In this document: positions 32,001 to 35,000 of the stretch, piece after piece | Position numbering within the stretch: position 1 is the first letter of the stretch | Layout: every line of letters starts with the position of its first letter | NCBI RefSeq assembly: GCF_046105845.1 | Contig: NZ_CP151004.1 | DNA from: Escherichia coli | Lineage (GTDB): Bacteria > Pseudomonadota > Gammaproteobacteria > Enterobacterales > Enterobacteriaceae | Strand: one strand, 5' to 3' | Length of the DNA: 64,000 bases | Made by a program: the position numbers

Positions 32001-35000
32001 ACGCCTTGCGTAAAGCGGCACGGCGCGGGGTGCGGATCAAACTGATCATTCAGGGCGAACCGGATATGCCGATTGTCAGAGTCGGTGCACGCTTGCTGTA
32101 TAACTATCTGGTTAAAGGCGGCGTTCAGGTGTTTGAGTACCGCCGCCGTCCGCTACATGGCAAAGTGGCATTGATGGACGATCACTGGGCGACGGTAGGG
32201 TCCAGTAATCTCGATCCGCTCAGTTTGTCACTGAATCTCGAAGCAAATGTCATCATCCACGATCGTCATTTTAACCAGACGCTGCGTGATAATCTGAACG
32301 GCATTATCGCCGCAGACTGCCAGCAGGTGGATGAAACCATGCTGCCGAAACGCACCTGGTGGAACCTGACCAAAAGCGTGCTGGCGTTCCACTTTTTACG
32401 CCACTTCCCGGCGCTGGTTGGCTGGCTTCCGGCACACACACCACGTCTGGCGCAGGTTGACCCGCCCGCTCAGCCGACAATGGAAACGCAGGATCGGGTA
32501 GAAACTGAAAACACGGGGGTAAAATCCTGATGAGTAAATCACACCCGCGCTGGCGCTTAGCAAAGAAGATCCTCACCTGGCTGTTTTTTATCGCGGTGAT
32601 TGTGTTGCTGGTGGTCTACGCCAAAAAGGTGGACTGGGAAGAGGTCTGGAAGGTCATCCGCGACTACAATCGCGTTGCGCTGCTTAGTGCGGTCGGGCTG
32701 GTGGTCGTCAGCTATCTGATTTACGGCTGCTATGACCTGCTCGCCCGCTTTTACTGCGGTCACAAACTGGCGAAGCGCCAGGTGATGCTGGTGTCGTTTA
32801 TCTGCTACGCCTTCAACCTGACGCTCAGTACCTGGGTCGGCGGCATTGGTATGCGCTATCGTTTGTACTCCCGGCTAGGGTTACCGGGCAGCACTATTAC
32901 GCGGATTTTCTCGCTGAGTATTACCACCAACTGGCTGGGCTATATTTTGCTGGCAGGGATTATCTTTACCGCGGGCGTGGTGGAGCTGCCGGATCACTGG
33001 TATGTCGATCAAACCACGCTGCGTATTCTCGGCATTGGCTTACTGATGATTATCGCGGTTTATTTGTGGTTTTGCGCTTTCGCGAAGCACCGCCATATGA
33101 CCATCAAAGGGCAAAAGCTGGTGCTGCCTTCATGGAAATTCGCCCTCGCTCAGATGCTGATTTCCAGCGTTAACTGGATGGTAATGGGGGCGATTATCTG
33201 GCTGTTACTTGGTCAAAGCGTGAACTATTTCTTTGTACTGGGCGTGTTACTGGTTAGTAGTATTGCTGGCGTCATCGTGCATATTCCGGCGGGAATTGGT
33301 GTGCTGGAAGCGGTATTTATCGCGCTACTGGCTGGGGAGCATACCTCCAAAGGTACAATTATCGCCGCCCTACTCGCTTACCGTGTGCTGTATTACTTTA
33401 TCCCACTGCTGCTGGCGCTGATCTGTTACCTGCTACTGGAAAGCCAGGCGAAGAAGCTACGAGCGAAAAATGAAGCGGCGATGTGAAGTTTAGTTAAGTT
33501 CTTTAGTATGTGCATTTACGACTAATGAAAAAAACGCGTATGCCTTTGCCAGACAAGCGTTATAGCTATCGCGGCAAGTATCCCAAAGAAGCCGATAAAA
33601 TAGTAATAGAGTGTTAATGCACCTGTAAAAGCGCAACGAACCGGACTCCACAACTCTTCGCTATGGCATTTTCCTGCCAGTTCAAGGAGCTTATTTCGTC
33701 CATGCGAGATAATGCCTGACCATAATACAATCATTAAGCAACTTATTACCCAAATGGGTCGTTCACTCATTAATGCGGCATTCATGAAGATCACCAGGGC
33801 CAGCCCTGCGGTTGCCACCATACCCAAAGCGGTAATGAGCCATATGCCGTTTAATATCCTGGCTTCGTGCTGAAAATCTAATTTATTGCTGTTTTGCGAG
33901 TATGACTCCATTCTTTTAGTTGTCCTTAGAAAAAATTATTAATATTCACCATCAATAAATTTAAAACCACGCATACAAAATACTTTTGTATTTATGGATA
34001 CGGAAAACGCTTCCGCTCGCTCATAAGGCATATTTTATACCTGGTACTTGTTAAGTATCGTTTTTTCGTAAGAAAAAAATCCCGACACATGGCCGGGATA
34101 TTGATGGTGAAAAAGAATTAACGGCGGTTGCCGAAGATCCGCAGCAACATAAGGAACAGGTTGATGAAGTCCAGATACAAGGTTAACGCGCCAAGAATGG
34201 AATATTTGCGCAGGTTCGACGTGTCGCGGGTATCAATCTGCTCACCCATATTTTTCAATTTCTGAGTGTCATACGCCGTCAATCCGACAAAGACAATCAC
34301 GCCGATGTAGGTAACTGCCCACATCAATGCTTCGCTTTTCAGCCAGAAGTTGACCAGCGATGCCAGCACAATGCCGATTAACGCCATAAACAGCATATTG
34401 CCAAAGCCACTTAAATCGCGCTTCGTGGTGTAACCGTACAGGCTCATTGCGCCGAACATCCCGGCAGTAACGACGAAAGTACTGGCGATAGAAGCAGCGG
34501 TATAGACAATGAATATACTGGAAAGCGTAAGACCCGTCAGCGCCGAATAAAGCATAAAGAGCATCGTCGTTACACCTGCGCTCAGCTTTTGAATCATCGC
34601 TGATAACACAATAACCAATGCTAATTGCGCGATGATCAGACCGATTAAAAAGACACGGTTAGTGAACAACAGCTCCATCACGGCCGCGGAATTAGCCGCA
34701 TACCAGGCAACAAATGCGGTCAGCAACAAGCCAACGGTCATCCAGCCATAGACTTGCGCCATATAAGTTTGCAAGCCAGCCCGGGGTTGTACAATTGAAT
34801 CAGAACGTGGGAATCTGTCCATGACTTTCTCCTGAAGATATAAGGAATATCTTAAGGATACTGCAAAATGATGAGGCTGTGCATCGACGCAGCGTAAACG
34901 CATGTACTGAGCGGTGAAATTGCCGGACGCAGCGGTGCCTTATCCGGCTAACAATAAACTACCAGCGTTTTGCCGCCTGCTGATCGCTCTCCCGAGCTTC

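What the first reader, a model, noticed from the sequence alone, without database searches (positions are those of the whole stretch)
33487..34117. Slot between ybhN and ybhL holds a 129-aa membrane ORF rather than the larger ybhM I expected
From memory, K-12 has a roughly 237-aa gene (ybhM) between ybhN and ybhL. Here the 631-bp interval contains only a 129-aa hydrophobic ORF (33522-33911, minus strand, G+C about 45-47% in two sampled 60-mers) and a 206-bp AT-rich non-coding stretch ending in the ybhL terminator. The 129-aa protein does not look like the BI-1 fold of YbhL. This could be strain variation, a truncation, or simply my recollection of the K-12 annotation being wrong.
Basis: partly seen in the sequence, partly recalled or inferred. 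Interest (0 to 1): 0.3.

Follow-up and report, generated by a model that had tools for sequence, protein, structure and literature searches.

The report
In-frame deletion allele of ybhM
The 129-residue membrane ORF between ybhN and ybhL is the known E. coli gene ybhM with 108 codons cleanly removed between two 11-base repeats, a common and already annotated strain variant (about one complete genome in ten).

Summary
The ybhN-ybhL interval is 631 bp and holds one 129-aa ORF (33522-33911, minus strand). K-12 has a 953-bp interval with a 237-aa ybhM.

The ORF is not a different gene. It is ybhM lacking codons 37-144. This is a 324-bp in-frame deletion between two in-register 11-bp direct repeats (CAGGGyTGGCC, both encoding G-L-A). 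It fuses TM1 to TM5 and removes TM2-TM4 of a seven-helix Bax-inhibitor-1/YccA-family protein.

- The retained parts are about 97% identical to K-12 YbhM and still score just above the Pfam Bax1-I cut-off.
- The junction is contiguous in 572 of 5426 complete E. coli genomes, where RefSeq annotates the ORF as "hypothetical protein" or "Bax inhibitor 1 family protein".
- Other Escherichia species carry the 237-aa form, so the short form is derived.
- A second junction type (6 genomes) and an independent 126-bp repeat-mediated deletion (195-aa allele) show that ybhM is deletion-prone.

The product is most likely a crippled remnant of a dispensable, weakly expressed paralog. A functional three-helix mini-protein is not excluded, because the ORF stays intact and pN/pS is low, although recombination confounds that measure. 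This is ordinary, low-interest strain variation.

The parts
32530..33486 (+). ybhN (318 aa), left boundary of the slot
   Evidence: ORF. The same gene is annotated in L001-L004. The exact protein is in the collection as YbhN.
33522..33911 (-). ybhM with codons 37-144 deleted in frame, giving a 129-aa product. Three hydrophobic segments: hybrid TM1/TM5 (about residues 19-44), TM6 (about 53-71), TM7 (about 103-121).
   Evidence: DNA and protein alignments to K-12 ybhM. Pfam Bax1-I 34.7 bits. Hydropathy. Exact match to WP_409023429.1.
33798..33808 (-). Deletion junction: the single remaining copy of the 11-bp direct repeat CAGGGCTGGCC (codons A35-G36-L37-A38). The crossover lies within TGGCC (33798-33802).
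   Evidence: Full-length alleles carry CAGGG-C-TGGCC at codons 35-38 and CAGGG-T-TGGCC at codons 143-146, 324 bp apart and in the same codon phase.
34034..34061 (-). Counterpart of the published K-12 ybhM sigma-70 promoter. -35 is ACGATA (K-12: ACGACA), spacer 16 nt, -10 is TATAAA.
   Evidence: Motif located. The K-12 promoter and an H-NS mark in the ybhL-ybhM spacer are listed in PMC3946193. Activity in this strain was not tested.
34072..34099 (-). Intrinsic terminator of ybhL: 8-bp stem, 5-nt loop, T-run
   Evidence: Terminator scan. Conserved in K-12 and in the three-paralog form.
34118..34822 (-). ybhL (234 aa), the canonical BI-1/YccA-family paralog and right boundary of the slot
   Evidence: ORF. 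RefSeq annotation of the homologous loci. Pfam Bax1-I 212 bits for K-12 YbhL.

Best explanation
The ORF is a derived allele of ybhM, not a different gene.

Shown:
- Full-length ybhM carries two in-register 11-bp direct repeats (CAGGGyTGGCC, 10 of 11 identical). Both encode Gly-Leu-Ala, one near the end of TM1 and one inside TM5, 324 bp apart.
- One repeat copy and the 324 bp between them are missing here, which is exactly 108 codons, so the reading frame is kept.
- The product joins residues 1-36 to residues 145-237.

Inferred:
- The deletion arose by replication slippage or another microhomology-mediated, RecA-independent event.
- TM1 and TM5 run in the same direction, so the hybrid helix should insert as before and TM6-TM7 should keep their topology. 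TM2-TM4, half of the seven-helix BI-1 fold, are gone.
- The product is therefore most likely a loss-of-function or severely reduced-function remnant.
- It is tolerated because ybhM is a dispensable, AT-rich, H-NS-marked, weakly expressed accessory paralog of ybhL. ybhM also lacks the family's two pore aspartates.
- The allele then spread by descent and homologous recombination to about 10% of E. coli.
For: - Identity: the retained parts are about 97% identical to K-12 YbhM, with a single clean 324-bp gap.
- Repeats and junction.
- Polarity: full-length YbhM covers Pfam Bax1-I positions 3-205 of 207, while the short form covers only 129-205. Two other Escherichia species carry the 237-aa form.
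- Frequency: a junction 50-mer is contiguous in 572 of 5426 complete genomes, and the deleted segment is absent from about 690.
- Dispensability and fragility of ybhM:
  - an independent 126-bp deletion between 9-bp repeats gives a 195-aa allele;
  - ybhM::IS5 occurs in HB101/RR1 (PMC5379014);
  - a Q122 stop is present in the C41-type short allele;
  - E. albertii has only an 81-aa remnant;
  - many truncated YbhM clusters exist in the protein collection.
- The aspartates of YbhL that align to BsYetJ are Gly and Tyr in YbhM.
- Low G+C: 42-44% against 51% for the window.
Against: - The short ORF is intact in all 13 short alleles examined except the C41 type. It is annotated as a CDS in all 45 sampled genomes.
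- Pairwise pN/pS among short alleles is 0.06-0.28, at pS up to 0.15.
- Variants private to the short alleles number 8 non-synonymous against 9 synonymous, fewer non-synonymous than neutrality predicts (binomial p = 0.005-0.04). This could mean the 129-aa product is still under constraint.
- The signal is confounded. Fourteen of 31 polymorphisms are shared with full-length alleles, the alleles are mosaic, and only seven full-length alleles were sampled.
- No expression or phenotype data exist for this allele.
Confidence: 0.8

Rival explanations
1. The 129-aa product is a functional three-helix membrane mini-protein (hybrid TM1/5 + TM6 + TM7) kept by selection. It might, for example, modulate YbhL, YccA or FtsH, or form an oligomeric pore from the C-terminal helices.
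For: - The ORF, start codon, ribosome-binding region and promoter counterpart are intact.
- The deletion preserves topology.
- pN/pS is 0.06-0.28 among short alleles, and non-synonymous changes are in deficit among private variants.
- The allele is at about 10% frequency on diverged backgrounds.
- A paper cited (Bultynck 2012, title only, not read here) reports that the C-terminus of BI-1 forms a Ca2+-permeable pore.
Against: - Half of the fold is missing.
- YbhM lacks both family aspartates.
- The selection signal is confounded by recombination with full-length alleles.
- One short-allele lineage carries a premature stop.
- ybhM is repeatedly disrupted in other ways.
Confidence: 0.17
2. The short form is ancestral, and the 237-aa ybhM arose by insertion or internal duplication of 324 bp.
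For: None beyond the bare length difference.
Against: - The 108 extra residues align to TM2-TM4 of YbhL, of the third paralog and of the Pfam profile.
- The full-length model matches BsYetJ.
- Two other Escherichia species have the 237-aa form.
- 4734 of 5426 E. coli genomes have the segment.
Confidence: 0.01
3. Assembly or sequencing artefact in this window, or an unrelated hypothetical gene that replaced ybhM.
For: None.
Against: - The same junction is found in 572 complete genomes.
- The exact protein is seen on four contigs, including one of 4.74 Mb.
- The flanks are collinear with ybhM on both sides.
Confidence: 0.01

Closest known systems
E. coli K-12 YbhM (b0787), 237 aa, Bax inhibitor-1/YccA family, function unknown
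   Same: Same slot and strand between ybhN and ybhL. Same start, stop and upstream region. Residues 1-36 and 145-237 are about 97% identical.
   Different: Lacks residues 37-144, which include TM2-TM4 and parts of TM1 and TM5. It has 129 aa and three rather than seven hydrophobic helices.
RefSeq short YbhM proteins WP_000446922.1, WP_000446924.1, WP_001586827.1 and WP_409023429.1 ('hypothetical protein' / 'Bax inhibitor 1 family protein')
   Same: The same 129-aa deletion allele. WP_409023429.1 is identical to the window's protein.
   Different: They differ from the window by 2-5 residues. For example, I42F was seen only in the window among the alleles examined.
YbhL / YccA / Bacillus subtilis YetJ (canonical bacterial BI-1/TMBIM proteins; PDB 4PGR)
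   Different: There is no seven-helix fold. The two aspartates conserved between YbhL and YetJ are Gly and Tyr in YbhM. No role in Ca2+/H+ leak or FtsH modulation has been shown for YbhM.
Short-direct-repeat (microhomology) deletions by replication slippage in E. coli (established knowledge)
   Same: The deletion endpoints lie in 11-bp near-identical direct repeats, and one copy is retained. A second ybhM deletion has 9-bp perfect repeats.
   Different: The mechanism is inferred from the junction sequence only. It was not tested experimentally.

Membership tests
ybhM orthologue (E. coli b0787) | Located between ybhN and ybhL, on the ybhL strand | tested here: met
ybhM orthologue (E. coli b0787) | High identity and collinearity with K-12 ybhM | tested here: met
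   About 97% protein identity over the retained 129 residues, with a single 324-bp gap.
ybhM orthologue (E. coli b0787) | Full length of 237 aa | tested here: not met
   129 aa; codons 37-144 are absent. It is therefore a deletion allele of ybhM, not an intact copy.
Bax inhibitor-1/YccA (Pfam PF01027 Bax1-I) | Profile match at or above the gathering score | tested here: met
   34.7 bits against a cut-off of 34.1, E = 2.1e-8, but only profile positions 129-205 of 207.
Bax inhibitor-1/YccA (Pfam PF01027 Bax1-I) | Seven transmembrane helices (BsYetJ-type fold) | tested here: not met
Bax inhibitor-1/YccA (Pfam PF01027 Bax1-I) | The two conserved aspartates of TM6/TM7 (D171/D195 of BsYetJ, the pH-sensing pair; residue numbers from the titles of PDB entries 6NQ8/6NQ9 and from my own knowledge) | tested here: not met
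   YbhL has D in AYDTQK and LYLDF, aligned to YetJ YDLNQ and LYLDF. YbhM has G in SHGRNK and Y in LYYYF.
Pseudogene (decayed coding sequence) | Frameshift, premature stop or loss of the start codon | tested here: not met
   The window ORF is intact, with ATG and TAA at the same positions as K-12. A Q122 stop occurs only in the C41-type allele.
Known anti-phage defence proteins (PADLOC) | Match to any PADLOC model | tested here: not met
   No hit for the short protein, K-12 YbhM, the third paralog or the DUF3969 neighbour.

The most novel reading that the evidence does not exclude
The ybhL-ybhN slot may be a long-lived diversifying locus of divergent BI-1-like membrane paralogs in Escherichia. 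It holds one, two or three copies, sometimes with a DUF3969 gene, and some arrangements are shared across species. Within it, the 129-aa TM1/5-TM6-TM7 product would be a selectively maintained mini-protein with its own function, such as a modulator of its full-length paralogs or of FtsH, rather than debris.
Probability: 0.12. Interest if true: 0.4.

Novelty: already known. Interest (0 to 1): 0.13.

Why it matters
It matters little for biology at large.

- It settles an annotation question. 'Hypothetical protein' entries such as WP_000446922.1 and WP_409023429.1 are ybhM deletion alleles and could be named accordingly.
- It gives a clean natural example of in-frame deletion between short direct repeats.
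- It flags ybhM as a dispensable, structurally unstable accessory paralog. Pangenome and gene presence/absence studies will otherwise split it into spurious gene families.

Tried and rejected
- PDB sequence searches with YbhM or the A2 profile found nothing. Only YbhL reaches YetJ.
- The single-sequence AlphaFold model was poor (pLDDT 58). A nine-sequence alignment gave pLDDT 78.
- The search for homologous proteins returned mostly fragment and truncated clusters. It did not give usable counts of full-length against short forms.
- pN/pS and the count of variants private to the short alleles were meant to decide between function and decay. I treat them as inconclusive because of shared polymorphism and mosaic alleles.
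- A neighbour-joining tree of the retained 390 nt does not make the short alleles a clade, so single origin against recurrent origin is not settled. The C41-type junction suggests at least two events.
- PADLOC, NCBIfam and Rfam gave no hits.
- The K-12/window 204-206-bp spacer shows no remnant of the third paralog apart from the terminator. I therefore dropped the idea that the K-12 form is a simple deletion of that gene.
- The paper on the antisense gene asa concerns yccA, not ybhM.

Full report
**Observation.** Reading the window confirms the anatomy.
- ybhN (32530-33486, + strand) and ybhL (34118-34822, - strand) bound a 631-bp interval.
- The only ORF in it with homology support is 33522-33911 on the minus strand, 129 aa.
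- The ORF is 44.1% G+C and the remaining 206 bp (33912-34117) is 32.5%, against 51.3% for the whole window.
- The 206-bp stretch ends in an intrinsic terminator for ybhL, with an 8-bp stem at 34099-34079 and a T-run.
- No Rfam family matches the region.

**What the ORF is.** A 1031-bp query across the slot matches 5424 of 5426 complete E. coli genomes, in three size classes of about 1029, 1353 and 2067 bp.
- The annotated loci show the three forms. A short form like the window carries a 390-bp CDS called 'hypothetical protein' or 'Bax inhibitor 1 family protein'. The K-12 form carries the 714-bp ybhM. A long form has a third BI-1-family gene between ybhM and ybhL.
- DNA and protein alignments show that the window ORF is collinear with K-12 ybhM apart from one clean 324-bp gap. 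Residues 1-36 and 145-237 are retained at about 97% identity.
- The K-12 interval is 953 bp. The 322-bp difference is the 324-bp deletion offset by two 1-bp insertions in the window's spacer.
- The short protein still matches Pfam Bax1-I just above the curated cut-off (34.7 against 34.1 bits), but only over profile positions 129-205 of 207. K-12 YbhM covers positions 3-205 at 75 bits.
- The short protein aligns to residues 146-229 of the adjacent YbhL at 26% identity.
It is the last three helices of a BI-1-family protein preceded by most of helix 1.

**How the deletion arose.** On the coding strand, full-length alleles read ...ACC GCA GGG CTG GCC TGG... at codons 34-39. They read ...TTG ACA GGG TTG GCC CTG... 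at codons 142-147.
- These are two in-register 11-bp direct repeats, CAGGGyTGGCC (10 of 11 identical in the O157, FDAARGOS_1283 and Escherichia sp. E1V33 alleles). They lie 324 bp apart and both encode G-L-A.
- The window reads GCA GGG CTG GCC CTG. One repeat copy is kept (window 33798-33808), with the 5' copy's C, so the crossover lies in TGGCC.
- This is the signature of slippage or microhomology-mediated deletion. The mechanism is inferred from the sequence and was not tested.
- Because the repeats share codon phase, the frame is preserved.

**Polarity.** The long form is ancestral.
- The 108 missing residues align to TM2-TM4 of YbhL, of the third paralog and of the Pfam profile.
- Escherichia sp. 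E1V33 and Escherichia sp. MOD1-EC7003 both encode 237-aa YbhM.
- An AlphaFold model of K-12 YbhM built on a nine-sequence alignment (pLDDT 78, pTM 0.74) has seven helices: 2-43, 54-72, 79-100, 103-127, 134-154, 159-192 and 198-236.

**Consequence for the protein.** The deletion joins helix 1 at residue 36 to helix 5 at residue 145.
- It removes the end of TM1, all of TM2-TM4 and the start of TM5.
- Hydropathy finds three hydrophobic segments in the 129-aa product, at about 25-43, 53-71 and 103-121.
- TM1 and TM5 have the same orientation in a seven-helix protein, so the hybrid helix should leave the topology of TM6-TM7 unchanged. This is inference.
- Half of the BI-1 fold is missing. YbhM also lacks both aspartates that YbhL shares with YetJ: YbhL has AYDTQK and LYLDF, while YbhM has SHGRNK and LYYYF.

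**Population picture.**
- A 50-mer spanning the junction is contiguous in 572 of 5426 genomes (10.5%). It is always chromosomal and single-copy, and it lies under an annotated CDS in all 45 sampled rows.
- The deleted 324-bp segment is present in 4734 genomes. The third paralog is present in 751.
- The window's exact protein is WP_409023429.1. Its 90% cluster has 452 member sequences, and one member was seen on 848 contigs.
- The window itself is a natural but unusual E. coli. Its best match over 20 kb to any complete genome is 98.4%, and the listed top matches are collinear single pieces of the same length, consistent with the short allele.
- Short alleles are mosaic. Fourteen of 31 polymorphic sites among them are shared with full-length alleles.
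- A metagenomic short allele (L016) has a 5' part one difference from the three-paralog-type allele and a 3' part closer to the other short alleles.
- The short alleles do not form a clade in the retained 390 nt.
- One lineage (strain C41; 6 genomes identical over the junction 50-mer) has the junction GGG TTG GCC CTG GTA. It also has K-12/O157-like bases at all five neighbouring diagnostic sites, plus a Q122 stop. This is most simply a second, independent occurrence of the same deletion.
- A different allele (195 aa) lost 126 bp between perfect 9-bp repeats ATCATCGTG.
- HB101/RR1 carries ybhM::IS5 (PMC5379014), and E. albertii keeps only an 81-aa remnant.
- ybhM is therefore structurally fragile and evidently dispensable.

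**Function.** No function is known for YbhM; the library holds only incidental mentions.
- One paper lists a constitutive sigma-70 promoter with an H-NS mark in the ybhL-ybhM spacer (PMC3946193).
- Another reports induction in O157 Sakai on lettuce (PMC6891304).
- The promoter counterpart is present in the window: ACGATA, 16 nt, TATAAA at 34061-34034.
- I judge the 129-aa product most likely a loss-of-function remnant (about 0.65 for this step).
- Against that, the ORF remains intact and pN/pS among short alleles is 0.06-0.28.
- Variants private to the short alleles are 8 non-synonymous against 9 synonymous, a deficit relative to neutrality (p = 0.005-0.04).
- Recombination with full-length alleles and the small sample of full-length alleles make this test inconclusive. 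A functional mini-protein remains a minority possibility.

**Comparison and verdict.** This is the known gene ybhM in a common deletion form that public annotation already carries. It is not a new gene, family or system. No PADLOC or NCBIfam model matches it. Interest is low. The useful outcomes are a corrected reading of the 'hypothetical protein' annotation and a tidy example of repeat-mediated in-frame deletion.

Noticed in passing
L003 2519-3223 (E. coli strain 1943); compare window 33912-34117: 751 of 5426 E. coli genomes carry a third, divergent BI-1-family gene (234 aa, Pfam 47.6 bits) between ybhM and ybhL. It sits in place of the 204-206-bp AT-rich spacer, and the two fillers share no similarity except the ybhL terminator. 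Both arrangements also occur in other Escherichia species: the E1V33 spacer is 95.6% identical to the window, and the MOD1-EC7003 paralog region is 90.6% identical to strain 1943. The polymorphism therefore looks old or exchanged between species.
   Followed up: partly
L012 3273-3650 and about 3865-4020 (Escherichia sp. MOD1-EC7003): Downstream of a full-length ybhM there is a DUF3969 gene (Pfam 62 bits) and a further small ORF. ybhN is reduced to a short remnant that fuses its first and last codons.
   Followed up: partly
L015 674-3858 (E. albertii NBRC 107761): In E. albertii the slot after ybhL holds four things in order. First is a 553-aa sulfatase-family (PF00884) membrane ORF. Next is an 81-aa C-terminal remnant of ybhM. 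Then comes a different 237-aa BI-1-like paralog (28 bits, below the Pfam cut-off). Last is a DUF3969 gene.
   Followed up: partly
L019 470-835 (E. coli C41), junction at about 701-750: This short ybhM allele has the alternative junction (TTG rather than CTG at codon 37), K-12/O157-like SNPs on both sides of the junction, and a premature stop at codon 122. Six complete genomes are identical over the junction 50-mer. It is probably an independent occurrence of the same 324-bp deletion.
   Followed up: partly
L017 184-771 (Logan assembly SRR21386016): A 195-aa ybhM allele produced by a 126-bp in-frame deletion between perfect 9-bp direct repeats ATCATCGTG. This is a second repeat-mediated deletion in the same gene.
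   Followed up: yes
L021 1105-1450 (E. coli FDAARGOS_448): An IS200C transposase gene lies between the short ybhM and ybhL in this strain.
   Followed up: no
window 24000-44000: The best identity of this 20-kb stretch to any of 5426 complete E. coli genomes is only 98.4%. The window therefore comes from a lineage poorly represented among complete genomes. Its ClsB and short YbhM proteins match rare RefSeq entries (WP_409023428.1 and WP_409023429.1).
   Followed up: partly
window 33522-33911; L002 1736-2449: ybhM is unusually polymorphic for an E. coli chromosomal gene. The 324-bp segment is only 90-95% identical to K-12 in 1162 genomes, and pS reaches about 0.2 between alleles. The N-terminal 12 residues are almost entirely replaced in the three-paralog-type allele (MNSRSANNITND against MESYSQNSNKLD).
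   Followed up: partly
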